Assembly (NCBI GenBank): GCA_018302815.1
Contig: JAGVZE010000009.1
Span: forward strand, 56,149 to 120,148
Direction: 5' to 3'
Source of the DNA: Candidatus Woesearchaeota archaeon
GTDB taxonomy: Archaea > Nanobdellota > Nanobdellia > Woesearchaeales > ARS49
DNA: 64,000 nucleotides
The translations under genes and the position numbers were made by a program. Below, piece after piece: positions 10,971 through 50,654 of this stretch. The first letter of the stretch is position 1, and each line of letters starts with the position of its first letter. The notes below the pieces were generated by a model. It did not search any database, was not told where the DNA came from, and saw only the letters and a program-made list of their open reading frames with translations.

Positions 10971-10975
10971 AAAAT

Positions 10976-12189: not shown

Positions 12190-12262
12190 TTCTTAACGTA
12201 TCTTTGGCAGGCGTAACGCCACGCTAATAACGCTAATAAGCCTGAAAACATCGCTAATAAGA
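12190..12262. repeat. iteron-like direct repeats CGCTAATAA x3 plus the inverted repeat GGCGT-A-ACGCC
   Basis: 'ggcaggcgtaacgccacgctaataacgctaataagcc...atcgctaataag' lies in the intergenic region between the serine recombinase and the ATPase gene. Confidence 0.5.
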
Positions 12263-12277
12263 AAAACAGCGCGACAA

Positions 12278-13991: not shown

Positions 13992-14636
13992 TCAAACACG
14001 ACCGCGATGTTTTGCGAAAGACGCTTCAAGCTCTTCGGGTGAAAGTTCAGTTGCAGAGTCGAACATCACCATGAAGTCCTGCGGGGTCATCGCCATAAGT
14101 CGGTTCCATGTCATGTTGTCTGCGAGTGGTGGTCCAATGATGAACTTGTTTTTCGGCTGGAATTCGGGCTTGCGAAACCATATCTCGCACATCTGACAAA
14201 CGTTGTGGCGTTTGCAGAATAACCACTGCGTCCCCATGAGACCACAGAAATAACAAAGCTCTTTCGGCTTAACTTCATCGCGTTCAAAAAGACTCATTCT
14301 CTTTCTCCATGTGGCGATGTCTTCAGGTGAGAGTTTGAATTTATAGTTTTGCTTATGACAGTGCGAGCCTCGCAAGCTGGTCTCTTCCGAAGTCATGCCA
14401 ATATCTGCGCCGTGAACGTGCTGCCTTTTGCAGAACGGGCAGTCCACTTGAACGCGGAAGAACCGCGAGCCGTCAAACGCCGTTTCAAGCCCAATGATGC
14501 GCGCTATCACTACAAAAACGCTTAATTGTTCGGCTCTTATAAACCGCCCGCAACACGCGCAATTCTCTGGCGGTTCGCCCTTCATACAGTACGGGTTTGC
14601 GCAATCTCGCTCGCATGGACAACCACTCATTTTCAA
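13992..14636 (-). CDS. Cys-rich protein (element)
   Basis: 214 aa with more than 20 Cys in CxC/CxxC arrangements. Confidence 0.4.
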   Translation of the reverse strand: MKMSGCPCERDCANPYCMKGEPPENCACCGRFIRAEQLSVFVVIARIIGLETAFDGSRFFRVQVDCPFCKRQHVHGADIGMTSEETSLRGSHCHKQNYKFKLSPEDIATWRKRMSLFERDEVKPKELCYFCGLMGTQWLFCKRHNVCQMCEIWFRKPEFQPKNKFIIGPPLADNMTWNRLMAMTPQDFMVMFDSATELSPEELEASFAKHRGRV

Positions 14637-14778
14637 AACACCTCTCTTTTTTGTTTACGAATGAAACGTCGCGCTCTGGTAAGCTCTCTGTGCAACGAAG
14701 ACAGCGCGGTAGCGTTCTCGGCTTCAAGTTGTACGAACAAGCGGTTTAAACCACTACTGCGCTGTTTAAAACCCGTAT

Positions 14779-15765
14779 TCATAATTTATCCCTCATTGCG
14801 ATGAACTGAAGTACGCGGTACGGTACTTTGTCTTTTTTCCCGCAAAGACCGCGATGCCACGCCTGCTTGACGGCGTGATAAAGTGCTTCATCGTTACCTT
14901 CGTAACGGCTTCGCCCGCCATTATGCGGCGTGCCTGCGTCTTCGCAACCCAAAAAACCACTCTCAACACAAAGATATTGTTGCGCGTTCAATGACACAAT
15001 GTGTCGCCAACAATGCCCCAAGCCCCCACTAACGCTCCAGTTTTTCCCCGTGTTTTCGCTTCCATGTAAGGGGTGCGGGACTCTGCCACCCTTCAAACCC
15101 GCAGAGCACACGTCCCTGATTGTTAATTCATAAAATGCACTTTTACGACCCCCCTTCTGATAAGTTCGCGGAACAGGCGCAGTTCTCTCAAGCTCGATGT
15201 TTTCCTGATGTCTTTCGCGGAATACGGGCGGGAGTTCATCGAAGGTGATGTTTGTAGGCATCGTTGCGACCTCAACAGTGTAACGTCCCGCGCTCGCTTT
15301 CAGCTCTTCAGGTAATGTGTTGATGTGTTCTTGGCTTCGCGGAACGTAACTGCCAGCGCAGACGACGTACTGCCAAATCGACCTGACTTCCCCTGACCCG
15401 CCTGTTGGAATGTTCGGTATCTTCTTACCTTCTGGCTGAAAATAGAATGCGTGAAAACCAACGCGCTTACTCGAACGGCTCGTCAAGGTCGGCTTCAATT
15501 TTTCCAACGGTGTTTTCTGGATGTCATCAACGTCAACGATGACCAGCCCGTCAAGGTCAGTCCCCGCTATTCCGATGTTGTATCCCACCTTCAAAAGTTG
15601 AACTGCCTGCTGAACTGTCAGCCTCGCTTTTTTCCACGAACCACTCACGCATGGGTCTTTGCCATTCTTCAACAAGCGGAACAAAAACGGTTCGTATGTC
15701 GCAGGCATTCCCTGTTTCAGGAGCGTGATGAACTTCAAAAACTCATCAGGACACGTCGCATTCAT
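14779..15765 (-). CDS. bifunctional primase-polymerase (PrimPol-domain) protein
   Basis: 'DLDGLVIVDVDD' resembles the PrimPol catalytic D.D motif region. Translationally coupled to the upstream D5-like helicase by a 4-nt overlap. Confidence 0.55.
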   Translation of the reverse strand: MNATCPDEFLKFITLLKQGMPATYEPFLFRLLKNGKDPCVSGSWKKARLTVQQAVQLLKVGYNIGIAGTDLDGLVIVDVDDIQKTPLEKLKPTLTSRSSKRVGFHAFYFQPEGKKIPNIPTGGSGEVRSIWQYVVCAGSYVPRSQEHINTLPEELKASAGRYTVEVATMPTNITFDELPPVFRERHQENIELERTAPVPRTYQKGGRKSAFYELTIRDVCSAGLKGGRVPHPLHGSENTGKNWSVSGGLGHCWRHIVSLNAQQYLCVESGFLGCEDAGTPHNGGRSRYEGNDEALYHAVKQAWHRGLCGKKDKVPYRVLQFIAMRDKL

Positions 15766-17792
15766 TCGAGCACCTTCAACTTATGGGGATTAACCTGAAC
15801 AACCGTGTTTTTGATTAACGCGAGGGATACTGCGCCCTCACCAACCTCTTTCACCACGACATCATACTCTGCGCCCTCACCCAAGTCCAAACGGCGAACG
15901 ACACCCCCCACAAGTTCAGATAACGCGCAGTCTTCACAATACGGTTTTCCCGACCTTTGGTACGAGCAAGGCGACCCAGCACAGCCAATACAAGGGTGGT
16001 GTGTGATGTCAGTCTTTTCAAAACCTGCATTGAACAGAAGTGAGGGAACGCCCTGCTCGACCTGCCCGCCCTGCCCAGTTGGGTTGGGTGGTCTGGGCGG
16101 GCAGTGTGATTTTCTATTATCGTCTACTTTTTCATTATTTACTATATTTTTATCATTATTTACTATATTTTTATCATTTCCCTGTGTGTCAAGAGAGTGA
16201 TTTTCTGCCACCCCACCGTGCCCGCCCTGCCCATTTGTTCGTGGTCGTTCTTTTTCCCCCTGTTCTGACTGTTCGAAAAGCTTAGCTTGGTTATCTTCCG
16301 TGTTATCTTCATTTTCTTCTTTTTTCGCGGTTTTCAATTTAATTCCGCGAACATAATGAACACGTTTTTCACTTTTTTCAATCCGTTTTTTTATCGACCG
16401 CGTGTACGATGCCTTTGCGTACAATTTTTTGAAAAAATCGTTTTCATCGAAACATTCAATTTCGCGGTCGTCGCAATAATCGCGGTACGCGAAGTAAACA
16501 TCATCCTTCAATTCTTTTTCATCATCCGCTTTAATCGTGCAGTCCATAACGAAACACAAAACGGGGTCGGTTTTTCGAAGGTATATTTCGCGGGTTTGCG
16601 CGACCTCCGCGCCGAACCCTTTGGCGTTCAATAATTCGTTTAATCCGTCCAAAGCGAAGTTCAACATTCCCGACAATTCGTTCGGCGTTGTGATTTTTTC
16701 ACTTTTTTTGGTATCCGCATTTTTTTCTTCAAATTTTTGTTTGAATAAAATCAAAATTGGTCTGCGCCACATCGCCGTGTCATCCTCGGGTAATTGCGGT
16801 AATTCGTTCGCCGAAAACGCGAGTTTCGCGTACACATTCAAATTAACATGCGCGCCGAATTTGTATTCCCCTGTGATTGTGTCCCCGCCCGTAATCGTTT
16901 TTATCGTTGACACGGATTGTTTATCTAAATTTTTCCCCGAAATGTCGGGCACGATGTTCGCCAGTTTACCGTGAAGGTTCACGACCGAAAATCGGTCGCG
17001 CATATTGTGCGGGCTTATCGTGCTGATGTTTTTTTGCCCGATGAATTTCGTCATTGCGCGAAGCAGTGTTGATTTTCCGTTCGCGCCCTCGCCTTCAAGC
17101 ATTAAAAAATTGGCGAATCGGTAATCGCGCAGTAAGGTATATCCAAACCATTTTTTTAATACTGCCCTGTCGTTTTGTTGTGTTGTGGGTAGGATTTCTT
17201 CGAGGAATTTTTCGAACTCTGGACATTTGGCGTTGGAGTCGTATTTCACGTCAATTTTTTGTAAAAACGGCGTTTCGGGGGTGTGCGGTGTTATTTTTTT
17301 GGTGAACACGTTTAATATTCCGTTTTGCACGCAGAAAAGTTCGGGTGGTGCTTCGGGAAATTCGGTTTTGCACGTCATGGAATATATTTTTGATGTGACT
17401 TCGTTTTTCATATTTCGCGTGGCGAACGCGCCGAGAATTTGTTGTACCAATAAATTTATTTTTTGTTTTCCGTTGGGCGTGTAATATCCGTTTTCGTAAA
17501 CGTAAATTGTCGGGCGGTCGGGGTCGCCGATGCTGATGAAATGTTGCGTTGTTAATATCGCGTCTGCGGTTTCCTGCGCGATTTCTGCCGTGCTTTTTTC
17601 GCGGTCGCTCGCATCATCGATGCCTTCGGCGCGTAATATTTTCACTGCATCTTTTTTCTGTTTTTTATTTAATTCTTTTTTCTGTGTGGGCTTCTCGTTT
17701 TTCGCTTTTTTCGTTTTTTGTGTTGAAGGTTTTGTTGGCTTGACTGCTGTTTTTCGTGGTGATGTCTTTTTGAGCTTAGTTTTCTTAACCAC
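15762..17792 (-). CDS. D5/P4-family primase C-terminal domain plus SF3 helicase
   Basis: 676 aa. 'FLMLEGEGANGKSTL' is the Walker A in the context of a P4-type primase-helicase. The N-terminus is Lys-rich. The C-terminus has a Cys cluster (CIGCAGSPC...CEDC) and a tandem DKNIVNN repeat. Confidence 0.75.
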   Translation of the reverse strand: MVKKTKLKKTSPRKTAVKPTKPSTQKTKKAKNEKPTQKKELNKKQKKDAVKILRAEGIDDASDREKSTAEIAQETADAILTTQHFISIGDPDRPTIYVYENGYYTPNGKQKINLLVQQILGAFATRNMKNEVTSKIYSMTCKTEFPEAPPELFCVQNGILNVFTKKITPHTPETPFLQKIDVKYDSNAKCPEFEKFLEEILPTTQQNDRAVLKKWFGYTLLRDYRFANFLMLEGEGANGKSTLLRAMTKFIGQKNISTISPHNMRDRFSVVNLHGKLANIVPDISGKNLDKQSVSTIKTITGGDTITGEYKFGAHVNLNVYAKLAFSANELPQLPEDDTAMWRRPILILFKQKFEEKNADTKKSEKITTPNELSGMLNFALDGLNELLNAKGFGAEVAQTREIYLRKTDPVLCFVMDCTIKADDEKELKDDVYFAYRDYCDDREIECFDENDFFKKLYAKASYTRSIKKRIEKSEKRVHYVRGIKLKTAKKEENEDNTEDNQAKLFEQSEQGEKERPRTNGQGGHGGVAENHSLDTQGNDKNIVNNDKNIVNNEKVDDNRKSHCPPRPPNPTGQGGQVEQGVPSLLFNAGFEKTDITHHPCIGCAGSPCSYQRSGKPYCEDCALSELVGGVVRRLDLGEGAEYDVVVKEVGEGAVSLALIKNTVVQVNPHKLKVLE
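16131..16175. repeat. tandem direct repeat and flanking G-rich inverted repeats inside the helicase gene
   Basis: 'ttactatatttttatcattatttactatatttttatcatt' is a 21-22 nt unit repeated twice. Next to it, 'ctgcccgccctgcccag...ctgggcgggcag' forms an inverted repeat (16056-16100), and 'gcccgccctgccca' recurs at 16223. Confidence 0.6.
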
Positions 17793-33721: not shown

Positions 33722-34934
33722 AGTCAACATAGGCATGATAGGCCACGTCGACCACGGTAAAACCACACTCGTACAAACCCTCTCCGGCAAGTGGACAGAC
33801 ACCCACAGCGAAGAGATAAAACGAGGAATCACAATCCGCCTAGGATACGCGGATGTCACATTCTACCAATGCCAAACCTGCGAAGGCTCAGACGCGTATG
33901 TCGTACAGCCAAAATGCCCAAAATGCGGAAATGACGCGAAACCTTTACGCAGAATCTCGCTCGTAGACGCCCCCGGACACGAAAGCCTCATGGCAACAAT
34001 GCTATGCGGAGCCAACATAATGGACGGCGCGCTGCTTTTGGTATCGGCGGCAGAAATCTGCCCGCAGCCGCAAACACGAGAACACCTGCAAGCCCTAGAA
34101 ATAATGGGCATCAAAAACCTCATCATAATACAAAACAAAATAGACCTTGTCAAAGAAGAGCAAGCCAAGAAAAACTACGACGAAATCAAAACGTTCCTCA
34201 AAGGCACGCAGTTCGAAAACGCGCCAATCATACCAATGAGCGCCTTGCACTCAATCAACCTCGATGTACTCATCCAGACAATCCAAGAAATCATTCCAAC
34301 TCCAAAACGAGACCTTGACGCAAACCCGCTAATGTTCATCGCGCGAAGCTTTGACATCAACAAGCCAGGATACACCCCTGACAAACTAGTCGGCGGAGTG
34401 CTCGGAGGAGCGCTCAAACAAGGAAAATTCATCGAAGGAGCAGAAATAGAAATAGTCCCAGGCTACGAAGTTCAGGAGAAAAACCAGAAAATCTGGAAGC
34501 CTCTTCGCGCAAAAATAGTATCGCTAATGACCGGAGGCCAAAAATCACACGAAGTTGTGCCCGGCGGAAGCATCGCAGTCATGACCTCGCTTGATCCGAG
34601 CGTGGTCAAAAGCGACAAGCTAGTAGGCTCAATCGCAGGACTACCCGGCACGCTGCCGCCTCTAAGATACGAACTCAAACTGGAAACACACCTGCTTGAA
34701 AGAGTAGTCGGCGCAAAAGACAAACTCGTAGTCGAGCCGGTCAAAATGGCAGAAGTGCTAATGCTCAACGTCAACGCAGCCGCGACAGTAGGAGTAGTAA
34801 AAGAGCTTGGCAAAAACACCATCAAAGTCGTTCTAAAAAAACCAGTATGCGCGCAAGCCGGCGCACGCGTCACAATGGGACGCAACCTCGGACAACGATG
34901 GCGACTCATCGGCTACGGAATAATCAAGCAGTAA
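33666..34934 (+). CDS. eif2g: translation initiation factor aIF-2 gamma subunit
   Basis: 'NIGMIGHVDHGKTTL' is the G1 motif and 'RGITIRLGYA' follows it. The zinc-ribbon insertion CxxC...CPKC is typical of aIF2-gamma. 'DAPGHE' is the G3 motif. Confidence 0.9.
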   Translation: MVKKKKAEEAHTSENAQPEVNIGMIGHVDHGKTTLVQTLSGKWTDTHSEEIKRGITIRLGYADVTFYQCQTCEGSDAYVVQPKCPKCGNDAKPLRRISLVDAPGHESLMATMLCGANIMDGALLLVSAAEICPQPQTREHLQALEIMGIKNLIIIQNKIDLVKEEQAKKNYDEIKTFLKGTQFENAPIIPMSALHSINLDVLIQTIQEIIPTPKRDLDANPLMFIARSFDINKPGYTPDKLVGGVLGGALKQGKFIEGAEIEIVPGYEVQEKNQKIWKPLRAKIVSLMTGGQKSHEVVPGGSIAVMTSLDPSVVKSDKLVGSIAGLPGTLPPLRYELKLETHLLERVVGAKDKLVVEPVKMAEVLMLNVNAAATVGVVKELGKNTIKVVLKKPVCAQAGARVTMGRNLGQRWRLIGYGIIKQ

Positions 34935-35544
34935 ACCTTTTCACCACAAATTCTATCGCAATACGAGTATCCTCATCCTCGGTGAAAGAACAATAACCAA
35001 GATACCTTGGAATCTGCTCCTTCAAACCGACAACGAACTGGCCCGAATGGCTCGCGACGCACTCCTTGAAATCCTCCTCACTTCTAGGCCATTCAAACCC
35101 CGTCCCAACCATACGACTGAATGAATCGATAAGACAAACATTCCACGCGTAATCAAAGCCGGAAAGCGAAGAAAGCCACTTTGCCATATCTATCTTGATA
35201 GTACCCGCAAGATTCACCGCGCAATCCTCTTCCTTTCGAAGATAATGATACTCAAGAGCCTCAACATCAACATTCACGTGGAAAAACGTCGGCTCCTCAC
35301 GATAAAACGCGACACCAATAAGAAAATCGACAAGCTCCAAAAGATGTGCAGGATTCATCAACGCGGATTTTAACGACGCTCCTGAAACAACCAAATCATT
35401 GCCTGTCTGACGAGAAAGATAAGAACATAAAAGCTCACCACCATCTCCAAAATCTTTCAAATGCGTATCAAGCATACGCGCGTTAGAATAGAAAACAACT
35501 CCCCCTGAACGCACAAATTCTTCAAGACTCATCGGCAAACGCAA
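34924..35544 (-). CDS. hypothetical protein
   Basis: 206 aa. Overlaps the stop of the upstream surface-protein gene. Confidence 0.4.
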   Translation of the reverse strand: MRLPMSLEEFVRSGGVVFYSNARMLDTHLKDFGDGGELLCSYLSRQTGNDLVVSGASLKSALMNPAHLLELVDFLIGVAFYREEPTFFHVNVDVEALEYHYLRKEEDCAVNLAGTIKIDMAKWLSSLSGFDYAWNVCLIDSFSRMVGTGFEWPRSEEDFKECVASHSGQFVVGLKEQIPRYLGYCSFTEDEDTRIAIEFVVKRFTA

Positions 35545-38096
35545 GGAAGCTTCTCGCGCAAGTCATTGCTCATATAATTGCAATAAGCAGACTCCTGAGT
35601 AACAGGCTTATGAGAACAATAAGGAATGCCCTTGCCCGCAGCAGCGTACACATCTACGCACTGGACGAACTTTCCATCAACATAAAGCGGCTCGTAGCCC
35701 ATACCGCAACTCGCGTCCCAGAACCTGCACGTCGCAGGATTAGAACAAATCACGCCCGCTGCAGGAGCTGGAATCTCAAGCGAAGGAGCGGAAGGCCCCT
35801 TGAACAACTGGCGCAGCCAAGCCGTGAACTTCTGCCAAAGCGAAACCTTCTCTACAGGCGAAGGAACCTCCAAAATCGGAGCAGGAGGACAGGTGCACGA
35901 CAATTTCGTTTGCGCATCCATATAATTGCACTTCAAACTACCCCTTGATATAGGCATAGTTCCGCAATAAGGAACACCTTCTGCAGCAGCCTTGTATGGG
36001 TCAACACAACCCTGCGCCTGACCATCCGCCATCAACTGATCAGTACCAAGGCCGCAACCTGAAAACACACGGCACTTGCCCGCAATGGCGCAAGTAGGAA
36101 CTTGACACTTGCAACCATTGCACGACATACCTGTCGGACAATCAGCCGCACTCTCGCACTGCTCACCAGGCTCTATAATCTTGTTGCCACAAGCAGGAGC
36201 TTGACACTTGCAGCCATTGCAAACAAGCCCTGCAGCGCAATCGGCAGCTACTTCACACTGCTCGCCAACTTCCAAAATCTTGTTACCGCACGCAGCCTTA
36301 GGCTTTGCAACACAAGTCTTGCAGTCATTCGAACACGTTCCGCGCTCGAAAACATTCGGAGTCGCGCACAAACTTGCAGGAGGATCGCAATATTCAGGAG
36401 CCACTATCAAGCCATCACCGCACTTTTGAACAGGAGAAGGCACTTGCTGGCCCGGCTTCATCAAAGCCGCGCGCTCGAAAGTTATCCAAACTTCAGCGCC
36501 AGCGCCGCCGCTTGAACCGCCCGAATAAGAACCAGGCATTATAAGACGCAAACTGTCGCTGTCGCTCTCAGTATCCCAATCGAACAAAATTCCGTATTGA
36601 GTCAAACCCTGCTTTCTGCCATCAACGCTTTCAAGCTCGAAAACAGCGCCCTGAGGCGATGGGACATTCAAATCTATTTCAGCGCCGAAAAGAATGCTGA
36701 ACTGAGTGTTCTCATCAGCTACCGCCTCATCGAACAAACGCTCAGGAGTAGTAATAGTAATTGTGAAACCCGGACCGAAATCAACTCTTGAGCCGCCCGC
36801 GAAAACGAAACGCGCCTCGCCACCGCTTATGCTGTTATCATTAGTCTGGTCCATCGCAAGAGAATCACCCGCTCCGACAACAAACTCGTACGTGCCTTCG
36901 CCGACAAGAAGCTGGCCTTCTCCAGTCACTGAATCAAACGTCGCAGTCCTAGAATTGCCCGCGAGGTCCTCGAAATAAAGCTGATTGCCTTCCCTTCTAT
37001 CATATCGCAGAACGTGCGAAGAACCCGAAATATCATTCTTGCTATTGACTAGGAAATAATCATCAACGTTGATGTTAGGAGCAGCTGAATTCGCAGCCTC
37101 GACAAAAACAAAATTCCTGCCACGATTACCATATGAACCCGGAAGCTGAGCCAGCGGAATGTTATAAGTTTGGCCCCTCGTGTTGGTCGCAGTCATAACA
37201 TACTCGTCATCTCCTCTTGGACTGATGCGAACCTCGTTGCCTGAAATTCCGCTTACAACAACGTTCCCGCCAGAACCGCCTAAGCCCTTGTAACAAATGT
37301 CGAAATCAGGAGAGAGCATGCCCAACGGATATTGGAGGAATTCGCGCACACAATGAAGCGGAAGAACCTGAAGATCGCCTCCCTCCTTCGCGTTCGCATT
37401 CAAAATGTACTGAAGAGAATAAATAACAAGAAAATCACTGCTCTCGGTCGCCTTTATCTTCACCAGCGCATCGATGCTCTGGCCGTTCACCTTGACACCA
37501 CTATAATAATTGTCATCCGCGTAATTGCCGTCGGTGAATTCAATGCTTCCAAACCCTCCGAAAAGCTTGAGCGAAACGCGATTGCTGTCAGTGTTCACAT
37601 TAGAATCGACAATACTATAAGTGTCGCCGAGCAACATTATATCCTCATCCTCAATATCAGGAAGAGAATTATCTTCTATGTTGCTCTGAAGACCTGAACC
37701 AAATTCTATCTGGTATTTGAAAACAGCATCTTCGAATTCAAGAAAATCAGTAACATCGCCAAGCTCGTGCTGGCCGAACACCATCCTTGCGCCATTGAAC
37801 GTGCCAGGGTCTCTGAAACGAAGGCTCTGGACGTAGTCTGTCCTGCCCTCGGCTCCATGAACTGTCCCCGAACGAAGACCTGAAATCTGTGTGCCGGTCA
37901 AACTCTCAACCTCATTGCCAAGATACTCACCGACCTCAAGACGCGCAATTACAGTGTCAGATGGTGAACTCGCAGCCTGTCCAACAAAAACTGTCGCGAA
38001 AGGAGCTGGCCTATCAAGAAGAGAAACTGAAAGCATAAGCGTCGCGATACCTACCACCGCGACAATTGCCAAAATACTTATCGGAACGTGACGCAT
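35529..38096 (-). CDS. large cell-surface protein with N-terminal signal/TM and C-terminal tandem Cys-rich repeats
   Basis: 855 aa. The hydrophobic N-terminus is 'ISILAIVAVVGIATLMLSVSLL'. The C-terminal repeats are 'ACGNKI(L/I)E.GEQCE.AADC..G..CNGCKCQ.P.C' x2, plus further Cys-rich modules. The underlying ~96-nt tandem repeats lie at about 36100-36300. Confidence 0.55.
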   Translation of the reverse strand: MRHVPISILAIVAVVGIATLMLSVSLLDRPAPFATVFVGQAASSPSDTVIARLEVGEYLGNEVESLTGTQISGLRSGTVHGAEGRTDYVQSLRFRDPGTFNGARMVFGQHELGDVTDFLEFEDAVFKYQIEFGSGLQSNIEDNSLPDIEDEDIMLLGDTYSIVDSNVNTDSNRVSLKLFGGFGSIEFTDGNYADDNYYSGVKVNGQSIDALVKIKATESSDFLVIYSLQYILNANAKEGGDLQVLPLHCVREFLQYPLGMLSPDFDICYKGLGGSGGNVVVSGISGNEVRISPRGDDEYVMTATNTRGQTYNIPLAQLPGSYGNRGRNFVFVEAANSAAPNINVDDYFLVNSKNDISGSSHVLRYDRREGNQLYFEDLAGNSRTATFDSVTGEGQLLVGEGTYEFVVGAGDSLAMDQTNDNSISGGEARFVFAGGSRVDFGPGFTITITTPERLFDEAVADENTQFSILFGAEIDLNVPSPQGAVFELESVDGRKQGLTQYGILFDWDTESDSDSLRLIMPGSYSGGSSGGAGAEVWITFERAALMKPGQQVPSPVQKCGDGLIVAPEYCDPPASLCATPNVFERGTCSNDCKTCVAKPKAACGNKILEVGEQCEVAADCAAGLVCNGCKCQAPACGNKIIEPGEQCESAADCPTGMSCNGCKCQVPTCAIAGKCRVFSGCGLGTDQLMADGQAQGCVDPYKAAAEGVPYCGTMPISRGSLKCNYMDAQTKLSCTCPPAPILEVPSPVEKVSLWQKFTAWLRQLFKGPSAPSLEIPAPAAGVICSNPATCRFWDASCGMGYEPLYVDGKFVQCVDVYAAAGKGIPYCSHKPVTQESAYCNYMSNDLREKLPCVCR

Positions 38097-38142
38097 AACA
38101 CCTCTTTACCAGTATAGAGAAGTGTATACTATTTAAATTTTT

Positions 38143-38667: not shown

Positions 38668-38816
38668 AGTGTAAATTGAAACTACATATTAAAGAAATAG
38701 AACAAAAAAAGGTATTTAAAAAGCTTTGGACTACTCGTCGTCAGAGCTGTCGTCGTCATCAAAGTCGTCGAAATCGTCGTCAGACATATAGGTCACCCCG
38801 GCTATTACTCGTGTTC

Positions 38817-38972
38817 CTACTTCTTTCCAAGGATACGGAAGACTTTTGTTCCGCACGTACCGCAAACGCCCTTAAGAGCTTTCATACCATTCTTCATAAT
38901 TGTCTCTTTGGCGTCCTTAATTGGCACCTGCTTCTTGCACTTCATACATCTACCTTCCATAACTGCTGCCAT
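38817..38972 (-). CDS. small zinc-ribbon protein (DUF5679-like, 51 aa)
   Basis: Read by hand: MAAVMEGRCMKCKKQVPIKDAKETIMKNGMKALKGVCGTCGTKVFRILGKK. It has two CxxC pairs with the 'KNG.KAL.G.C..CGT' spacing of a conserved small archaeal protein family. Confidence 0.4.
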   Translation of the reverse strand: MAAVMEGRCMKCKKQVPIKDAKETIMKNGMKALKGVCGTCGTKVFRILGKK

Positions 38973-39090
38973 AGTCAATCACCCCTCCAAGAGTGTTGGA
39001 TGTTCTTGAGCCATGAATTGATATAAAGCTTTGCATAAAGTGTAGTAATTTCTTAGTAGCGAAAGAGCCATGAATAACGTGCAAGGAGTC

Positions 39091-41252: not shown

Positions 41253-43220
41253 TCAGTATTCTTTGAGATCAAGCACGCGAACTTTCACTCCAACAGGCAC
41301 GCCCGCCCTAGAAAGCTCAGATACAAGAGCGCCCTTGAACGAAGAAACATCAGAGGGAACGTTGAACGCGGCATAAGGCACTCCCATCACTTCAACAGCA
41401 GGAATCTGCGCTCCAAGCAAAAGCTCGACTGCCTCAAGACACTTGTGCTCAAGCGGAGCCACCGATGCGGAAACATCCACAGGAGCTAACATATGCTTAT
41501 CAACCATGTTGACGACCAGCTCAAGAACTGAAGACTCGACAATCTTCACATGCTTGTCCCGATCAGCAATCACCTGGTCGTAATGCGCCTTGTGCTTTAC
41601 CGAAACATCATAATCATCCACAAACTTCTGAGCTTCAGCGCGATTGATGAACGGATTCCCTTCAGGAAGCTCTAAAACATTCTTTGCAGCAGCATACTTC
41701 TTTGACGCATCGGCATCCAATTCCTTGAAGTCAGAAAGCTTTTTGCCACCAAACACATCAGACGCCAATTCTTCGTCAAGTATACGAATGTACGAAAACG
41801 CGTCCTTAGACTCACTTGAAAAACTCGAAGGCACATACACCGGACGGCGGGAAATCTCGTCCTCAAGAGATTGTATAGCGCTCTTGCACTCCTCGTGCGA
41901 AACAACAACAGCAGGACTTTCTGAAGCTCTCTCGCCCCTTAAAAACTCATCCAAATCGTGCTCGAGCTGCTCTTTTGCGGCAAGCGCATCCTCCTTCTCC
42001 TTTTGAGCGTTCTCCAGCTTTGCCGTGTAACTTTCAACCTGTCCTTTGAAGTAAACAACAGCCCTCTCCAAAAGCTGAAGCTTTCTTTCCGAAGGCATCT
42101 TGTCTTCCTCATCTTGCTCGTAGGTATTGGCAAGAACTAGTTCTGCTTTTCGCTGCTCGCGCTCGTTGAATAACTGCAACTGTCTTGCCACAAGAGACTT
42201 AAGCGCATCAATTGTGAATTCAGTTGAGCTTACACGTATGAGCTTTGCACCATTATCAAGAACAGCCCTCACTCCCTTAGCAGACAGATGATCATTAAGA
42301 GTGTTCTTGAAATTGACTCCCTCCGGAGGCATCCTCGTGATAGAATACTCCACAAAATATTGTGTTTTCTTAGCGCGATACGACTCGAGCGCAGCGCGTA
42401 AATCATTGCACTCCTTTTCCATACGCCAACTATACATCTCAGGCATACGAAGCGGTTTGCCGTCAACCTGTGTAGAAGTGAAATGAATCCAGTCTGAATC
42501 CACACTTGCTGAAGAATCATATTTTCCGGTGAAAACCACAAAATTGTTCGGGTCTCGACCAGTCACCAAAGCGCCAATGTGCATCGGACTTTCAGGATTG
42601 AACAAAAGCCGAGCGCAATCCTGAGCAAGCACGCTTTGACATTTGTCAAGAGTGACCAGCGCCACAGGAACGCTTTTCTCATAGAACTGCGTGAACGCGT
42701 ACGCGACAAGCTCAATATCCGCTTTGCTAGGACGCCTGTCCTCTCCTGCGAAAACTTTTCCGTTCACTTTATCGATAAAACTTGTGAACCCAGCAGTCCT
42801 CACATTAGCAGAAGGCACCCTGCGCCTCATATTCTTGTAAACTTCATCGCGCAGAACCTTAAGAGAAGAAATGTTCGCACGGCAAGCGTGGTCAACAGAA
42901 CCGGAAATACCGTCAAGAAACACCAAATCTGAAATCTCGGAAAGCTGCATCGGAGACGAATAAACACTTTCGTCATCAAGAACTGTCCTCTTCACACGCC
43001 TGAAAAGATCGAGCGCGTCCTGGAATGAAAGCGGATCTTTGCAGCCATCCCTCTTTCCGAAAAGTGAAGATAACGTAGGACTAGTCGGAGCGCAGATAAA
43101 GCTCGCATCCACAAATAATGAGCCGTCGATGAACGGACGCAGCGCGCCGGTAGGGTCAGTAACTCCTGCGAACTGCTTATCCATCAACTTAAGCATCGTT
43201 TCGAGCCCGATATCAACCAT
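41253..43220 (-). CDS. large hypothetical protein with a coiled-coil segment
   Basis: 655 aa. The central region (EREQRKAELV...KLENAQKEKEDALAAKEQLEHDLDEF) is a predicted coiled coil. No catalytic motif. Confidence 0.45.
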   Translation of the reverse strand: MVDIGLETMLKLMDKQFAGVTDPTGALRPFIDGSLFVDASFICAPTSPTLSSLFGKRDGCKDPLSFQDALDLFRRVKRTVLDDESVYSSPMQLSEISDLVFLDGISGSVDHACRANISSLKVLRDEVYKNMRRRVPSANVRTAGFTSFIDKVNGKVFAGEDRRPSKADIELVAYAFTQFYEKSVPVALVTLDKCQSVLAQDCARLLFNPESPMHIGALVTGRDPNNFVVFTGKYDSSASVDSDWIHFTSTQVDGKPLRMPEMYSWRMEKECNDLRAALESYRAKKTQYFVEYSITRMPPEGVNFKNTLNDHLSAKGVRAVLDNGAKLIRVSSTEFTIDALKSLVARQLQLFNEREQRKAELVLANTYEQDEEDKMPSERKLQLLERAVVYFKGQVESYTAKLENAQKEKEDALAAKEQLEHDLDEFLRGERASESPAVVVSHEECKSAIQSLEDEISRRPVYVPSSFSSESKDAFSYIRILDEELASDVFGGKKLSDFKELDADASKKYAAAKNVLELPEGNPFINRAEAQKFVDDYDVSVKHKAHYDQVIADRDKHVKIVESSVLELVVNMVDKHMLAPVDVSASVAPLEHKCLEAVELLLGAQIPAVEVMGVPYAAFNVPSDVSSFKGALVSELSRAGVPVGVKVRVLDLKEY

Positions 43221-44297: not shown

Positions 44298-45023
44298 CTA
44301 ACGCGCAAGAACCACTAATGCATCACGCCAAGAAGTCCTATCAAGCTTGAATCGAGCATCGATGTACAAAGTTGTGTAAGGTTCATCCACATCCAACCTC
44401 AACACGCGGGTTCGCAGACTACGCGGACACGTAGTCATCAATGAATCCGAAACACCATAGAGATCGCGCACTTTTCGCGCCAACTGCACAGAACAGACGC
44501 GTTCAACAATAGGAACACGAACTTCTTCAAGCGGAGACGAGGCAGCTCTTGAAAGACGAACCCCCTCACTTGCGCAGTCCACTCCTTGAGCAAGAGGAGT
44601 GTAACCGTTCCTTGCTATCAATTCATCGCACACAGAAATAATATCAAAATGCATCAACTCAAACCTTCCAGAATACCTCACCGCAGAACAAGTATCAATA
44701 TAGTCAGACTCACACACCCTGTGAGCAGATTCGCACCGTCCACTCGTAAGTGCCTCGAGCGTCTCAGCCAAACTTAACGGCCGATATCTTCCGTTCACGA
44801 ACGGCTGAGATTCTGAAGCAACCGACTGCAAACCATCAATCATAAAACCATACGAATACTTCTCAAGAGGAAGACGCACAACCTCATACGAAGAAACAAC
44901 CCGCGCGTCAAAAGGAGCACTCTGCCCCGCACGCTTACGCGCAACACGCAGGCGAATGCCATCATCACGAGCGCCGGACTCGCTGAACCTGCGCTCCAAA
45001 TCACGAAGACGAGAATCGCTCAT
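44298..45023 (-). CDS. hypothetical protein, paralog family 1 (N-terminal MSDSRLRDLERRFSES)
   Basis: 241 aa. The N-terminal ~35 aa resemble those of the adjacent 265-aa gene. 4-nt start/stop overlap with it. Confidence 0.45.
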   Translation of the reverse strand: MSDSRLRDLERRFSESGARDDGIRLRVARKRAGQSAPFDARVVSSYEVVRLPLEKYSYGFMIDGLQSVASESQPFVNGRYRPLSLAETLEALTSGRCESAHRVCESDYIDTCSAVRYSGRFELMHFDIISVCDELIARNGYTPLAQGVDCASEGVRLSRAASSPLEEVRVPIVERVCSVQLARKVRDLYGVSDSLMTTCPRSLRTRVLRLDVDEPYTTLYIDARFKLDRTSWRDALVVLAR

Positions 45024-45817
45024 TGGGAATCACCTGCTGGTTTCCTAATTATTGTTCCCGCAGGAAAACGGAAGCGAATATTTCGCACATGCTCAAAAGC
45101 CACATCATTCTGCCGTCCCGGAGAAACAACCGCGCACGCAATAGAACCCTGGACGGCAAGATCAAAATAATCCACCATAAACGGAAAAGATTCTCCAAAA
45201 TGCTGCACGCTCAACTCGTCATAAACATTAAAGAATTCTCTCCGAAGAGCGCGATCCTTAACTTGCATTGAATATACATAGTTATCCGGAAATGAGCCCA
45301 TGAACGCAACCTTCCCACCCAACTCCTCACGCGCATCCCCCCTTAACCTCGCACAAGAGCCAGCAAGAGATAGATGATTATAAACCAGCCCGCACAAAGC
45401 GTCCGACCCCGGCACCAATTCTGCTCTTTGAAAACAATCAGCAGTCAACCAATACGACCTGCTCCGGCCAAAAACAGAAACAACAGAATCACGAGCGGAC
45501 GAATTGTAACCCTCAACAACAGAACGCATCAATTCCTCTAAAGTCAACAACCGTGGAACAAGCTGCGAGCCATTGAAAATGTGCGGATGCACGCACTGCC
45601 CTGCAAGCTCGCTTTCAACACGCGCGATAAGAGCGGAAACATTCGGACCGCAATAATCATCAGAGCCCGTCTCAATCAAATCCAACTCCCAACCAGAACC
45701 AATAACCGGAACATCATTACCAACACGGACACACTCCCGCGCATAACGCTCGAAGTCCGCTTTAGCACGGCTTTCTTTCCACGCTCTTTCAAGCTCACGA
45801 AGACGCTCGTCGCTCAT
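45020..45817 (-). CDS. hypothetical protein, paralog family 1 (N-terminal MSDERLRELERAWKES)
   Basis: 265 aa. Shares the N-terminal leader with the 44298..45023 gene and with the plus-strand array at 48530-50654. Confidence 0.45.
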   Translation of the reverse strand: MSDERLRELERAWKESRAKADFERYARECVRVGNDVPVIGSGWELDLIETGSDDYCGPNVSALIARVESELAGQCVHPHIFNGSQLVPRLLTLEELMRSVVEGYNSSARDSVVSVFGRSRSYWLTADCFQRAELVPGSDALCGLVYNHLSLAGSCARLRGDAREELGGKVAFMGSFPDNYVYSMQVKDRALRREFFNVYDELSVQHFGESFPFMVDYFDLAVQGSIACAVVSPGRQNDVAFEHVRNIRFRFPAGTIIRKPAGDSQ

Positions 45818-49208: not shown

Positions 49209-49866
49209 GCGACGAGAAATTCAGAGAGTATCAACGAGCAGTTGATTCAGGAGACATTGAAGCGCTGCCAAGCCTCATAACAGAAGCAGTACGCACCAGC
49301 ACGCCAATCTACAAATACGCAGGAAGAATACTCTACAATCTAAACGACAACGTTGTAAGATCACAGACAAAGTCATTCCATCGCTTGAACTCAACCTAAT
49401 CAACAACGCAGTCGTACGCCCTCCGGGATACGAATACGTCCATGCAGTCAAAGCGAGTTGTTTTTGGAGCAGCGTATTCGACTGCCGTTTTCTAATCAGA
49501 GAAACACCTCTTCGCCAAATGGCAAATGGCGCTCGGATCGGCACATTCGATATCAGCCCATACGGCAACCGAGCGAGCGCTGATGCAAATAAACCTGCGC
49601 AGGAAAGAGCAGTTCTCGTGCACGGCAAAAAGACCCCAGACACACCCGGACTGTTCTTTGGCCTTGAACATAATGCACTAACAATCTCAGATGTTCGAAA
49701 AGACGGCACAGTCCATCCACTCACAATACATTTGGGAGAATCACGCCAGCACTACACCCTATATTCATCCAACAATCGAAATCAGACCGCAATCCCCCTC
49801 ACAACCAAACACGCCGAACACATACTCGGAAATCCGAATGTCTTTGATTTCGAGGCGATAAAATGA
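49205..49866 (+). pseudogene. paralog family 2, copy B (frameshifted)
   Basis: The N-domain is 98% identical to copy A. Its frame stops at 49399. The body, homologous to copies A and D, continues in the -1 frame (listed ORF 49519..49866) and ends '...TKHAEHILGNPNVFDFEAIK'. ATGA overlaps lie at both junctions. Confidence 0.5.
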
Positions 49867-50654
49867 GCGATGCGGAGTTCAGAAAATACGAACGCGCGGT
49901 GAACGAAGGAGATATCGATGCCATACCTCAATTAATCACTGCGGCGCTAAGAACAAACACGCCGATTCACAAGTATTTACCAACGATAAATGACAATCTA
50001 AACCAAAACGTAATCAGAACGCTCGAAGGAAGCGAACTTATGGATTTGAGAATGTATCGCGTGCATTCCATCCCTGAAGCCGCAGCGATACTCGAACGCT
50101 CAGGAAGAGTGTTGCCGTCGCTTGAAATTATCGCGCTCAATCACGAGATAACCGGATTTGCCGGAAAAGAAAACTCAGACATCCTCATGAAAGAGAGCAT
50201 CGTAAGATTCGACGTTCCATATTTTGTGAGAGCCTCGCACATTTTCAGATTGGCACACGAACAGGGAATACGGGGCACTCATGAAGAACTAATTGAGCGC
50301 ATGTCAACATATCAAGCTTTAACAGCCGCTCAAATAGAGAGAACACGATGCACAAGGTCCATCTCACAAATTCTCCAAACCGCAACCAGGCACGAACTAT
50401 CACAGCTATACGAACTATCACAATTATTCTTGATCGACCAATCGATGCGCGTCACCCTTGAAATAATTTATCCTTATCGCCAAGAAGCGCACACCAACCC
50501 ACACGAGCAACACATATTCGTTCGAAAAATTGCAGAACATATCGAATGCCAGTCCAACCCGTTCATCTTCAACGAGGCCCTCATGATCCCGACCGTCAGC
50601 CCAAAAGCTGAACACATTCTTGGCAATCCGAACGTGTTTGAGTTCCCTGAATAA
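49863..50654 (+). CDS. paralog family 2, copy C (intact, 263 aa)
   Basis: A single frame holds the N-domain 'MSDAEFRKYERAVNEGDIDAIPQLITAALRTNTPIHKY', a body homologous to copies A and B ('RVLPSLEIIALNHEIT' versus 'DKAIASLEVILINNLIT'), and the C-terminus 'KAEHILGNPNVFEFPE'. Confidence 0.5.
   Translation: MSDAEFRKYERAVNEGDIDAIPQLITAALRTNTPIHKYLPTINDNLNQNVIRTLEGSELMDLRMYRVHSIPEAAAILERSGRVLPSLEIIALNHEITGFAGKENSDILMKESIVRFDVPYFVRASHIFRLAHEQGIRGTHEELIERMSTYQALTAAQIERTRCTRSISQILQTATRHELSQLYELSQLFLIDQSMRVTLEIIYPYRQEAHTNPHEQHIFVRKIAEHIECQSNPFIFNEALMIPTVSPKAEHILGNPNVFEFPE

What the first reader, a model, noticed from the sequence alone, without database searches (positions are those of the whole stretch)
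35529..38096. An 855-aa surface protein has tandem Cys-rich repeats encoded by ~96-nt nucleotide repeats
It has an N-terminal signal/anchor. The C-terminus has two near-identical modules (ACGNKI(L/I)E.GEQCE.AADC..G..CNGCKCQ.P.C) and further Cys-knot-like segments. The DNA repeats at about 36100-36300 could mediate expansion or contraction. Cys-rich extracellular repeat proteins are candidate adhesins in small-genome, possibly host-dependent, archaea.
Basis: seen in the sequence. Interest (0 to 1): 0.5.

Follow-up and report, generated by a model that had tools for sequence, protein, structure and literature searches.

The report
Unglycosylated, cysteine-tailed S-layer paralogue (Woesearchaeota)
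The gene encodes a conserved cell-surface protein of a tiny DPANN archaeon: a cut-down copy of the organism's S-layer (cell-wall) protein with a disulfide-rich tail that conspicuously avoids all sugar-attachment sites, so it looks like a structural envelope part and not a strain-variable adhesin.

Summary
ORF 35529..38096 (-) encodes 855 aa with a hydrophobic N-terminal helix and 36 Cys, 34 of them in the last 300 residues. It contains two tandem 33-aa six-Cys modules. The DNA period is 99 nt, not 96, and the copies are only 72% (nt) and 76% (aa) identical.

The protein is MBS3148071.1 of a Candidatus Woesearchaeota MAG. Residues 45-524 are homologous (hhalign probability 100%, E 1.4e-97) to a second Woesearchaeal family that meets Pfam S_layer_C. 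That family co-occurs in the same genomes.

The gene appears once per genome. In 17 species genomes it lies between the DUF655/L21e/RpoF block and aIF2-gamma.

The repeats are an old duplication. Two copies occur in about 51 of 60 relatives, three in 5 and none in 4. Eleven contigs carry the identical protein. The only one-copy variant has no contig on record.

New finding: the family is almost free of N-X-S/T sequons (0.07 per protein against 4.0 expected). The canonical paralogue is enriched (11.6 against 6.9).

Distant relatives place similar Cys modules directly before a C-terminal membrane anchor.

Best reading: an exported, unglycosylated second S-layer or envelope component whose Cys modules form a membrane-proximal stalk. 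An adhesin role is unsupported.

The parts
35529..38096 (-). Whole coding sequence, 855 aa, identical to MBS3148071.1 (hypothetical protein J4219_04255, Candidatus Woesearchaeota archaeon)
   Evidence: ORF list. Exact-sequence look-up. The identical protein was read on 11 contigs.
38130..38137 (-). TTTAAATA, an archaeal TATA-box-like element 34-41 nt upstream of the ATG and preceded by an A-rich stretch. It suggests the gene has its own promoter.
   Evidence: Read directly from the sequence. The assignment rests on consensus only (inference).
38099..38105 (-). AGAGGTG Shine-Dalgarno-like element just upstream of the start codon
   Evidence: Sequence. Inference from the consensus.
38022..38087 (-). 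N-terminal hydrophobic helix (aa 4-25, VPISILAIVAVVGIATLMLSVS). It is either a signal anchor or an unusually hydrophobic signal peptide with a possible S-V-S cleavage site.
   Evidence: Kyte-Doolittle 2.67, against 1.6-1.9 for the signal peptides of the canonical paralogue. AlphaFold2 helix at residues 4-22. Pairwise identity is 58% across the family, as high as the core. Whether it is cleaved was not resolved.
37956..38021 (-). Variable, low-confidence linker (aa 26-47) that begins with the D-R-P-A-P-F motif shared with the mature N-terminus of the canonical S-layer-like paralogue
   Evidence: pLDDT 35-45. Pairwise identity 31%. BLASTP aligns LLDRPAPFAT with LSDYPAPFVV of P0061.
36525..37964 (-). 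All-beta S-layer-like core (aa 45-524)
   Evidence: hhalign of the family profile against the profile of the PF05124-positive Woesearchaeal family gives probability 100%, E 1.4e-97 and 476 aligned columns. pLDDT is mostly above 90. There is no PDB relative by sequence or by fold.
37293..37352 (-). Core Cys pair C249 and C268 (PLHC...FDICYKG), conserved in this family and absent at the aligned positions of the canonical paralogue. Probably a disulfide.
   Evidence: C249 and C268 are conserved in at least 90% of sequences in the alignments. The aligned positions in family A carry no Cys. The disulfide is inferred.
36312..36422 (-). First six-Cys module (aa 559-595, CGDGLIVAPEYCDPP...C...C..C). 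Its Cys are conserved in nearly all homologues, including the 560-580-aa forms that end after it.
   Evidence: In a 13-sequence sample all six Cys (C559, C570, C577, C588, C592, C595) are invariant. In the 60-sequence alignment C588 is invariant and the other five are at least 90% conserved. Module counts per homologue.
36195..36293 (-). Repeat 1 (aa 602-634), six-Cys module C-x10-C-x5-C-x5-C-x2-C-x-C
   Evidence: There is a weak, sub-threshold DUF4215 / TIGR02232 resemblance.
36096..36194 (-). Repeat 2 (aa 635-667), the same six-Cys module. It is 25/33 aa and 71/99 nt identical to repeat 1.
   Evidence: pLDDT is 82-94 across aa 556-665 in the tail-only model.
35889..36092 (-). Eight-Cys module A (aa 669-736), seen only in the sublineage of the query (P0003-P0008)
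   Evidence: A search with the tail alone found only one close fragment.
35799..35846 (-). Amphipathic Trp/Phe-rich basic helix (aa 751-766, VSLWQKFTAWLRQLFK), preceded by a Pro-rich linker. In the roughly 705-aa relatives this motif (F..W..WL..LF) is the extreme C-terminus.
   Evidence: AlphaFold2 helix at residues 753-765. Tail motif found in most homologues. MAFFT places it opposite the C-terminal transmembrane helix of distant relatives. A membrane-binding role is inferred.
35535..35747 (-). Eight-Cys module B (aa 784-854), a duplicate of module A
   Evidence: 30 identical positions and an alignment score 14.8 SD above shuffles. A weak DNA echo of the flanking Pro-rich linkers appears as repeat family D2.
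34924..35532 (-). Downstream 202-aa ORF whose ATG overlaps the stop codon (ATGA), suggesting co-translation. It is lineage-specific and of unknown function, and may not be part of the system.
   Evidence: Sequence. Called as a gene on other contigs. No family hit. No counterpart in 17 related loci.

Best explanation
The gene encodes a core cell-envelope protein of Woesearchaeota. It is a trimmed paralogue of the organism's S-layer-type protein.

Shown:
(1) Residues 45-524 are homologous to a second Woesearchaeal family that meets Pfam S_layer_C. That family has a classic signal peptide and is encoded elsewhere in the same genomes.
(2) This paralogue lacks the other family's extra N-terminal segment, its internal insertion of about 85 aa and its C-terminal domain of about 135 aa. 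In their place it has a much more hydrophobic N-terminal helix and a tail of even-numbered Cys modules: 6 + 6 + 6, and here also 8 + 8.
(3) The gene appears once per genome and keeps the same housekeeping neighbourhood in 17 species genomes.
(4) The family is almost completely free of N-X-S/T sequons, while the canonical paralogue is enriched in them.
(5) More distant relatives carry a similar Cys-rich region directly before a C-terminal transmembrane helix. Other relatives end in the same Trp/Phe amphipathic helix seen here.

Inferred mechanism: the protein is exported through Sec. Its beta-rich core associates with, or sits beneath, the glycosylated S-layer made by the canonical paralogue. 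The disulfide-bonded Cys modules form a rigid, membrane-proximal stalk that ends in an amphipathic membrane-binding helix. The N-terminal helix may serve as a second tether. The protein must stay unglycosylated, presumably because its surfaces are buried in protein-protein contacts.

On this reading it acts as a tether or spacer subunit of a two-component envelope, and module number (0, 2 or 3, plus the extra 8-Cys modules here) sets the length of the stalk. The 99-nt DNA repeat is the trace of an ancient module duplication kept by purifying selection. It is not a device for ongoing expansion and contraction.
For: Homology to the S-layer-like family:
- BLASTP to P0061 gives E 1e-25 over aa 53-526.
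- P0061 scores 48.5 bits on PF05124 against a 23.9 cut-off.
- Almost all full-length members listed for the P0061 family carry PF05124, and some are named 'S-layer protein' by NCBI.
- Profile-profile probability is 100%, E 1.4e-97.

Both families occur in the same genomes:
- The MAG tags COV18 and HY489 appear in both hit lists, and contig lengths of 875,259 and 117,552 bp are shared.
Both proteins were also read in sample ERZ27247320.

Core-gene behaviour: 17 loci from 17 genomes were found, and aIF2-gamma lies downstream in all 17. DUF655, L21e and RpoF lie upstream wherever the contig reaches that far.

Sequon avoidance:
- The query has 0 sequons against 4.6 expected, P = 0.007.
- Of 59 family members, 55 have none, mean 0.07 against 4.0 expected.
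- The reversed motif [ST]-x-N occurs 5.2 times per protein. At position N+2, Ser is seen 4 times against 139 expected and Thr 10 against 111.
- The canonical paralogue has 11.6 against 6.9 expected, and the other window ORFs 58 against 71.
- The N-terminal-helix relatives of about 560 aa have 0.42 against 4.0.

Orientation of the tail: ten relatives (P0249, P0266, P0272, P0275, P0281, P0296, P0306, P0312, P0318, P0239) have a signal peptide, the core, Cys modules and then a C-terminal hydrophobic helix (Kyte-Doolittle 2.1-3.3). The alignment places this helix opposite the F..W..WL..LF tail.

Disulfides: Cys counts are even throughout the family (8, 18, 20, 22, 24, 26, 34, 36).

Old, stable duplication.

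The Cys modules are as conserved as the core. The mature protein is acidic, pI 4.5.
Against: - No experiment or expression data exists for this family. That the PF05124-positive paralogue is the real S-layer of these uncultured cells is itself an annotation-level inference. The only support is a metatranscriptome report that 'S-layer protein genes' are among the top-expressed Woesearchaeal genes (PMC11606122).
- The query itself does not reach any Pfam or NCBIfam threshold.
- Whether the N-terminal helix is cleaved is unresolved. The canonical paralogue's signal peptide is also well conserved, so conservation does not settle it.
- In the query the amphipathic helix is internal and followed by another 8-Cys module. 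This fits a terminal membrane anchor less neatly.
- The short relatives end without any tail, so the stalk is not essential to the family's basic role.
- Sequon loss shows selection against glycosylation but does not say why.
Confidence: 0.5

Rival explanations
1. Reader's hypothesis. The protein is a host-attachment adhesin of an episymbiotic archaeon. Its Cys-rich repeats form the exposed binding tip, and repeat number varies by recombination to tune binding or evade recognition.
For: - The protein is exported and Cys-rich, and the organism belongs to DPANN.
- Tail architecture differs between sublineages: 0, 2 or 3 repeats, with or without the 8-Cys modules.
- A variant with three substitutions over about 720 aligned residues lacks exactly one 33-aa unit (P0001). 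Another variant (P0002) is identical up to aa 458 and about 70% identical after that.
- The repeat type also occurs in giant multi-repeat surface proteins such as P0305 and P0308.
Against: - The gene appears once per genome, is syntenic and is conserved across 17 species genomes. It is not an accessory or variable locus.
- The Cys modules are as conserved as the core, 61-63% against 57%.
- Two copies are kept in about 51 of 60 relatives, with weak positional orthology.
- The DNA units are 72% identical with at most 13 nt of exact match.
- Eleven contigs carry the identical protein.
- P0001 and P0002 are contig-less SRC entries. From my own background knowledge I take SRC to be a protein-level assembly catalogue, which can skip or mis-join repeats.
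- In distant relatives similar Cys modules sit next to a C-terminal membrane anchor.
Confidence: 0.17
2. The protein is the subunit of a surface appendage or fibre derived from an S-layer protein, as reported for the altiarchaeal hamus (grappling hook). It is not part of the lattice.
For: - There is precedent: the hamus subunit has an S-layer-like N-terminus, a predicted N-terminal hydrophobic helix or signal peptide, and a beta-rich fold (PMC4460559).
- The present protein is a diverged S-layer paralogue kept alongside the canonical one.
- The superfamily is large and architecturally diverse, with 1,415 representatives at E of 0.001 or better.
Against: - The hamus protein is reported as probably glycosylated, with at least seven predicted sites. 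This family is sequon-free.
- No assembly or pilus genes lie next to it. The neighbours are housekeeping genes.
- Nothing in the model suggests head-to-tail polymerisation.
Confidence: 0.1
3. The Cys-rich tail binds metal (Zn or Fe-S) or has a redox role at the cell surface, instead of forming a disulfide-stabilised spacer.
For: - There are 34 Cys in 300 residues with regular spacing.
- The organisms are probably anaerobes, where extracellular disulfides are less expected (background knowledge).
- The upstream gene encodes a CxxCxxCC putative Zn/Fe-chelating protein.
Against: - Cys numbers are always even, and the modules resemble the DUF4215 / myxo_disulf_rpt class of extracellular Cys repeats. 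The query's own hits are below threshold, while P0308 reaches 38.8 bits on DUF4215 in the region matched by the family profile.
- There are no His or Asp ligand patterns and no match to any metal-cluster family.
- The CxxCxxCC neighbour is present in only 4 of the 17 related genomes (L001, L003, L012, L016).
Confidence: 0.06

Closest known systems
Methanococcales/Thermococcales-type archaeal S-layer proteins (Pfam S_layer_N PF05123 and S_layer_C PF05124), represented here by the roughly 890-aa Woesearchaeal family of P0061
   Same: The all-beta core is homologous: hhalign probability 100% over 476 columns. The D/Y-x-P-A-P-F motif follows the N-terminal hydrophobic segment in both. Both are acidic and exported, and both are found in the same genomes.
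   Different: - The query does not reach the PF05124 or PF05123 thresholds.
- It lacks the extra N-terminal segment, the insertion of about 85 aa and the C-terminal domain of about 135 aa.
- Its N-terminal helix is far more hydrophobic: Kyte-Doolittle 2.6-2.9 against 1.6-1.9.
- It carries a Cys-rich tail (36 Cys against 2-10) and a conserved core Cys pair.
- It is sequon-free, while the canonical family is sequon-enriched.
DUF4215 (PF13948) / TIGR02232 'myxo_disulf_rpt' cysteine-rich acidic repeat. UniRef labels the homologue P0003 'Disintegrin domain'.
   Same: It has the CG[ND]G..E.GE.C[DE] start and six-Cys spacing, is acidic, and occurs in tandem in secreted proteins. In P0308 the region matched by this family's repeat profile scores 38.8 bits on DUF4215 against a cut-off of 27.
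SlaB of Sulfolobales, the membrane-anchored stalk subunit of the two-component SlaA/SlaB S-layer (PMC10903991, PMC6911244; listed, not read)
   Same: The likeness is functional only. It would be a second envelope protein that tethers or spaces a glycosylated canopy from the membrane, and it co-exists with a larger lattice protein.
   Different: There is no sequence or fold relationship. From background knowledge, SlaB is anchored by a C-terminal transmembrane helix with a coiled coil and is itself glycosylated. Here the partner is a paralogue of the canopy protein, is sequon-free and uses Cys modules.
Hamus (grappling-hook) subunit of Candidatus Altiarchaeum hamiconexum (PMC4460559)
   Same: It is a diverged S-layer-like, beta-rich protein with an N-terminal hydrophobic segment that has been put to another surface use in an uncultured archaeon.
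   Different: The hamus protein has predicted glycosylation sites, and no cysteine-rich tail is described for it: a word search of that paper for 'cysteine' gave 0 hits.

Membership tests
Pfam S_layer_C (PF05124) / S_layer_N (PF05123) | The protein scores at or above the Pfam gathering threshold for the family HMM | tested here: not met
   No PF05124 or PF05123 hit for the query at E up to 1. None of the 59 close homologues hits either family. Only the distant P0061 does.
Pfam S_layer_C (PF05124) / S_layer_N (PF05123) | Demonstrable homology to bona fide members (superfamily level) | tested here: met
   P0061 scores 48.5 bits against a 23.9 cut-off, and P0220 and P0196 also pass. hhalign of the query family against that family gives probability 100%, E 1.4e-97 and 476 columns.
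Archaeal S-layer protein (functional class) | Forms the paracrystalline surface lattice and is among the most abundant envelope proteins | not testable with these tools
   This needs proteomics or cryo-ET of the uncultured organism. The only indirect evidence is a TATA-like box and a Shine-Dalgarno-like element and conserved single-copy synteny.
Archaeal S-layer glycoprotein | Carries N-glycosylation sequons (N-X-S/T) | tested here: not met
   The 855 aa contain 0 sequons, and 55 of 59 homologues have none. The canonical paralogue has a mean of 11.6.
DUF4215 (PF13948) / TIGR02232 myxo_disulf_rpt | Score at or above the curated cut-off | tested here: not met
   13.2 bits against 27 and 9.8 bits against 20.8. 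The best E among the homologues is 0.0013. The relationship is supported only indirectly, through P0308.
Disintegrin domain (the name UniRef gives to homologue P0003) | Match to the Pfam disintegrin model | tested here: not met
   No disintegrin family appears in the Pfam output at E up to 1 for the query or up to 0.1 for the 60 homologues.
Contingency / copy-number-variable repeat locus | Repeat units nearly identical at the DNA level, with long exact matches | tested here: not met
   71/99 nt are identical and the longest exact in-register match is 13 nt. 17 of the 28 differences are at third codon positions.
Contingency / copy-number-variable repeat locus | Copy number differs between closely related strains | tested here: inconclusive
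   Eleven contigs carry the identical two-copy protein. One variant with three substitutions over about 720 aligned residues has one copy (P0001), but it is an SRC entry with no contig on record. The one metagenome contig found covers only aa 1-317.
C-terminal sorting signals (PGF-CTERM and related archaeosortase signals) | Match to an NCBIfam sorting-signal model: motif, transmembrane helix and basic tail at the C-terminus | tested here: not met
   The only NCBIfam hit is the weak TIGR02232. There is no hydrophobic segment of transmembrane length outside residues 1-29. The tail helix has only about 13 residues.
SlaB-like S-layer anchor | C-terminal transmembrane helix plus coiled-coil stalk, and sequence homology to SlaB | not tested
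   No SlaB sequence was compared. The architecture differs, and the resemblance is functional inference only.

The most novel reading that the evidence does not exclude
Woesearchaeota, and other DPANN lineages that carry the N-terminal-helix relatives, may build a two-component envelope from two paralogues of one ancestral S-layer protein. One would be a sequon-rich, glycosylated canopy subunit. The other would be this sequon-free, membrane-tethered subunit, whose disulfide-rich DUF4215-like modules act as a length-adjustable stalk that sets the width of the pseudo-periplasm. Strict avoidance of N-glycosylation would then be a readable sequence signature of S-layer subunits whose surfaces are buried.
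Probability: 0.25. Interest if true: 0.6.

Novelty: new variant of a known kind. Interest (0 to 1): 0.45.

Why it matters
No DPANN S-layer of this type has been characterised at the molecular level, and Woesearchaeota are uncultured. This work identifies a second S-layer-derived protein that is conserved across the relatives examined and has a distinct architecture. That gives a concrete candidate for how these very small cells tether or space their envelope.

It also gives a simple, testable sequence signature. Sequons are depleted by more than 25-fold in this family, while the paralogue in the same genomes is enriched. This contrast could be used to sort archaeal surface proteins into glycosylated-exposed and buried classes.

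The result also corrects the tempting reading of a Cys-rich tandem repeat as a variable adhesin. Here the repeat is an old and stable structural module.

Tried and rejected
- Strain comparison at the DNA level. The contigs for P0001 and P0002 are not on record. The metagenome scan returned one identical contig covering only aa 1-317. The one-copy variant therefore stays unverified.
- PDB by sequence, with the single protein and with a 60-sequence profile: nothing meaningful.
- Foldseek against PDB with the full model: no hit at E of 0.001 or better.
- The afdb50 library was not available.
- A homology search with the last 187 aa (8-Cys modules plus helix) found only one close fragment. These modules were not found outside the sublineage of the query.
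- NCBIfam gave nothing for P0061 or for the neighbouring ORFs.
- Rejected: an intracellular enzyme. There is no such match, and sequon avoidance together with S-layer homology argues for export.
- Rejected: PGF-CTERM-type sorting.
- Rejected: recent duplication or concerted evolution as the main explanation of the repeat. Only a mild excess of within-protein identity is seen in the query (76% against a family mean of 58%).
- Rejected: an operon link with the upstream CxxCxxCC gene. That neighbour is present in only 4 of 17 related genomes, and the target appears to have its own TATA-like box.
- Literature searches for DPANN or Woesearchaeota with cysteine-rich surface or S-layer proteins, for DUF4215 and for PF05124 found no description of this family.

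Full report
**1. The observation**

ORF 35529..38096 on the minus strand encodes 855 aa. The first 29 residues are strongly hydrophobic, with Kyte-Doolittle 2.67 over 19 aa. AlphaFold2 predicts a helix at residues 4-22.

The protein has 36 Cys. Two are in the core (C249, C268) and 34 lie between residues 559 and 854.

Tandem Repeats Finder reports a single array at 36091-36295 with period 99, 2.1 copies and 75% matches. The repeat finder gives the same pair at 72% identity.

In protein terms the two units are aa 602-634 and aa 635-667. They share 25/33 residues, including all six Cys. At the DNA level 71/99 nt are identical. Of the 28 differences, 17 are at third codon positions, and the longest exact in-register match is 13 nt.

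The remaining Cys-rich sequence is also modular:
- a six-Cys module at aa 559-595;
- two eight-Cys modules at aa 669-736 and 784-854, which are duplicates of each other (30 identical positions, score 14.8 SD above shuffles).

**2. Whose gene it is**

The exact sequence is MBS3148071.1, 'hypothetical protein J4219_04255 [Candidatus Woesearchaeota archaeon]'. It was read on 11 assembled contigs.

The neighbouring genes are archaeal housekeeping genes:
- aIF2-gamma, convergent and downstream;
- phosphoglucomutase/phosphomannomutase;
- DUF655;
- RpoF (Rpb4);
- ribosomal protein L21e.

A scan of one genome per GTDB species found 17 loci in 17 assemblies, one per genome. Most are labelled Woesearchaeota or Nanoarchaeota, and a few carry evidently automatic labels. 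In all 17 the gene lies next to aIF2-gamma. The DUF655/L21e/RpoF block lies upstream wherever the contig reaches that far. The gene is therefore vertically inherited, appears once per genome and sits in a fixed position. It is not an accessory locus.

A TTTAAATA box lies 34-41 nt upstream of the ATG, and an AGAGGTG element lies just before it. These suggest the gene has its own promoter and ribosome-binding site. This rests on consensus only.

**3. What the protein is related to**

Pfam and NCBIfam give only sub-threshold hints for the query: DUF4215 at 13.2 bits against a cut-off of 27, and TIGR02232 at 9.8 bits against 20.8.

The word-indexed search found 60 close homologues, nearly all unnamed or 'hypothetical, Woesearchaeota'. 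It also found one distant hit, P0061 (E 1.2e-27), which carries PF05124 S_layer_C.

P0061 belongs to a separate Woesearchaeal family of about 890 aa, here called family A:
- almost all full-length members listed carry PF05124;
- some are named 'S-layer protein' by NCBI;
- they have a classic signal peptide (…GATIFGASA);
- they have few Cys and no membrane anchor.

I aligned the query family together with its short relatives and compared that alignment with family A by profile-profile comparison. The result was probability 100%, E 1.4e-97 and 476 aligned columns. Query residues 45-524 align with P0061 residues 92-773.

Relative to family A, the query family (family B) differs as follows:
- it lacks an N-terminal segment, an insertion of about 85 aa and the C-terminal domain of about 135 aa;
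- it has gained a core Cys pair;
- it carries the Cys-rich tail.

Both families occur in the same genomes:
- The MAG tags COV18 and HY489 appear in both hit lists.
- Contig lengths of 875,259 and 117,552 bp are shared between the lists.
- P0039 and P0066 were both read in sample ERZ27247320.

The exhaustive profile search shows a large superfamily, with 1,415 representatives at E of 0.001 or better. Several architectures occur:
- canonical signal-peptide forms;
- forms of about 560 aa with the same very hydrophobic N-terminal helix, no Cys and no tail;
- forms with a Cys tail ending in a conserved F..W..WL..LF amphipathic helix, which is the query family;
- forms of about 770 aa with a signal peptide, the core, Cys modules and a C-terminal transmembrane helix.

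**4. Structure**

With a 60-sequence alignment, AlphaFold2 gives a confident all-beta core. pLDDT is mostly above 90 for residues 50-520, and the Cys modules score 70-85. A tail-only model gives 82-94 for residues 556-665.

Neither model has a convincing relative among solved structures:
- Foldseek found nothing at E of 0.001 or better.
- PDB sequence and profile searches were empty.

The fold of this S-layer superfamily therefore appears to be unrepresented in the PDB copy used.

**5. The repeats: dynamic or fossil?**

Across the family, the six-Cys repeat occurs twice in about 51 of 60 proteins, three times in five (P0025, P0029, P0030, P0033, P0035) and not at all in four short forms (P0056-P0059).

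Repeat 1 resembles repeat 1 of other species more than it resembles repeat 2. R1-R1 identity is 64%, R2-R2 is 64% and the cross comparison is 57%. The duplication therefore predates the radiation of the family. The query has the highest within-protein identity (76% against a mean of 58%), which may reflect some local gene conversion.

The modules are as conserved between species as the core, at 61-63% against 57%. This is not the pattern of a diversifying binding tip.

One variant, P0001, differs from the query by three substitutions and lacks exactly one 33-aa unit. Another, P0002, is identical to aa 458 and about 70% identical afterwards. Both are 'SRC' entries from run SRR3989344 with no contig on record. 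From my own background knowledge I take SRC to be a protein-level assembly catalogue, in which repeat skipping and chimeras can occur. I therefore treat these two as unverified. Eleven nucleotide contigs carry the unchanged two-copy protein.

**6. An unexpected property: sequon avoidance**

The 855-aa protein has no N-X-S/T sequon, although 4.6 are expected from shuffles (P = 0.007). This holds across the family and contrasts sharply with the canonical paralogue.

| Set | Sequons observed (mean per protein unless noted) | Expected from shuffles |
|---|---|---|
| Query | 0 | 4.6 |
| Family B, 59 proteins (55 have none) | 0.07 | 4.0 |
| N-terminal-helix relatives of about 560 aa | 0.42 | 4.0 |
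| Family A (canonical paralogue) | 11.6 | 6.9 |
| Other window ORFs of 150 aa or more (total) | 58 | 71 |

Further controls come:
- The four family B exceptions all lie in the extreme C-terminal region.
- The reversed motif [ST]-x-N occurs 5.2 times per family B protein.
- At position N+2, Ser is seen 4 times against 139 expected and Thr 10 against 111.

These homologues are only 50-60% identical, so drift would have re-created sequons. The pattern therefore implies sustained selection against N-glycosylation. The simplest reading is that the protein is exposed to the oligosaccharyltransferase, that is, it is exported, and must stay sugar-free.

**7. Orientation and mechanism (inference)**

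In the relatives of about 770 aa, the Cys modules sit immediately before a C-terminal transmembrane helix. In an alignment this helix falls opposite the F..W..WL..LF tail of the query family.

In the query, that tail is the helix VSLWQKFTAWLRQLFK at aa 751-766 (AlphaFold2 helix 753-765). It has an aromatic face and a basic face, as expected for a helix that binds the membrane interface.

Cys counts are even in every family member, which fits complete disulfide pairing.

I therefore read the tail as a rigid, disulfide-stabilised, membrane-proximal stalk, and the protein as a tethering or spacing partner of the glycosylated canopy formed by the canonical paralogue. The N-terminal helix may be a second tether. 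It is as conserved as the core (58%), but so is the signal peptide of family A. Cleavage after S23-V24-S25 therefore cannot be excluded.

In the query's sublineage a Pro-linker plus 8-Cys unit was duplicated on both sides of the helix. This is the least well explained feature.

**8. Comparison with known systems**

- The protein is homologous to the PF05123/PF05124 class of archaeal S-layer proteins, but it fails the Pfam threshold itself and differs in architecture and in sequon content.
- Its repeats belong, at the sub-threshold level, to the DUF4215 / myxo_disulf_rpt kind of Cys repeat. A bacterial multi-repeat protein, P0308, links the two: its region matched by this family's repeat profile scores 38.8 bits on DUF4215.
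- Functionally the nearest analogy is SlaB of Sulfolobales, which is not homologous.
- The altiarchaeal hamus shows that S-layer paralogues can be put to other surface uses (PMC4460559).
- No paper in the searchable library describes this family.
- A metatranscriptome study lists 'S-layer protein genes' among the top-expressed Woesearchaeal genes, without saying which (PMC11606122).

**9. Verdict**

The feature is real. It is an uncharacterised variant of the archaeal S-layer protein family that is conserved across the relatives examined. Its Cys repeats are an old structural duplication, not a contingency device.

The adhesin idea is not excluded but is disfavoured. The sequon-free against sequon-rich contrast between two paralogues in one genome is the most interesting and most testable result. 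I rate interest at 0.45 and novelty as a new variant of a known kind.

Noticed in passing
window 38817-38978 (-): A 53-aa CxxC...CxxC zinc-ribbon ORF (MTMAAVMEGRCMKCKKQ...CGTCGTKVFRILGKK). On another contig the same gene is called as a 42-aa product with a DUF5679 hit. The 116-aa plus-strand ORF at 38676-39026, which 'matched' 12 related loci, is its antisense shadow.
   Followed up: partly
window 34924-35532 (-): A 202-aa ORF whose ATG overlaps the TGA of the 855-aa gene (ATGA), suggesting translational coupling. It has no Pfam or NCBIfam hit and no counterpart in 17 related loci. In L019 the same slot holds a NUDIX gene.
   Followed up: partly
window about 5258-17792: A probable integrated mobile element. 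A tRNA at 5258-5371 (114 nt, found by Rfam but missed by ARAGORN, so possibly intron-containing) is followed by a phage-type integrase (5434-6717), two large ORFs without family hits, a resolvase (11638-12174), a Prim-Pol (14779-15765) and a D5_N/DUF5906 primase-helicase (15762-17792).
   Followed up: partly
P0002 (SRC entry SRR3989344_292207) compared with window 35529-38096: This protein is identical to the query over aa 1-458 and only about 70% identical afterwards. It is either a recombinant allele in the population or an assembly chimera. No contig is on record.
   Followed up: partly
window 44298-45023, 45020-45817 (-) and 49863-50654 (+): Three ORFs open with the same MSD.RLR.LER... motif. 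They appear to be a small local paralogue family and have no Pfam hit.
   Followed up: no
window 1-64000: GC skew is negative in almost every 2-kb window (cumulative -4.26), and AT skew is mostly positive. This is a sustained strand asymmetry across the whole window.
   Followed up: no
window 2986-4833 (+), 6881-10156 (+) and 41253-43220 (-): Three large ORFs (615, 1091 and 655 aa) have no Pfam hit. The 655-aa one gives only a faint, far sub-threshold NCBIfam hint to an archaea-specific SMC-related protein. The 615-aa one starts with a signal-peptide-like segment.
   Followed up: partly
P0305 and P0308 (from the profile search): Two giant proteins (2,219 and 2,748 aa; 138 and 148 Cys) contain 10-11 tandem stretches that match this family's six-Cys repeat profile. 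P0308 also carries SdrD_B, DUF4215 and weak, sub-threshold hits to the T9SS sorting domain Por_Secre_tail, so the module may be shared with bacterial surface proteins.
   Followed up: partly
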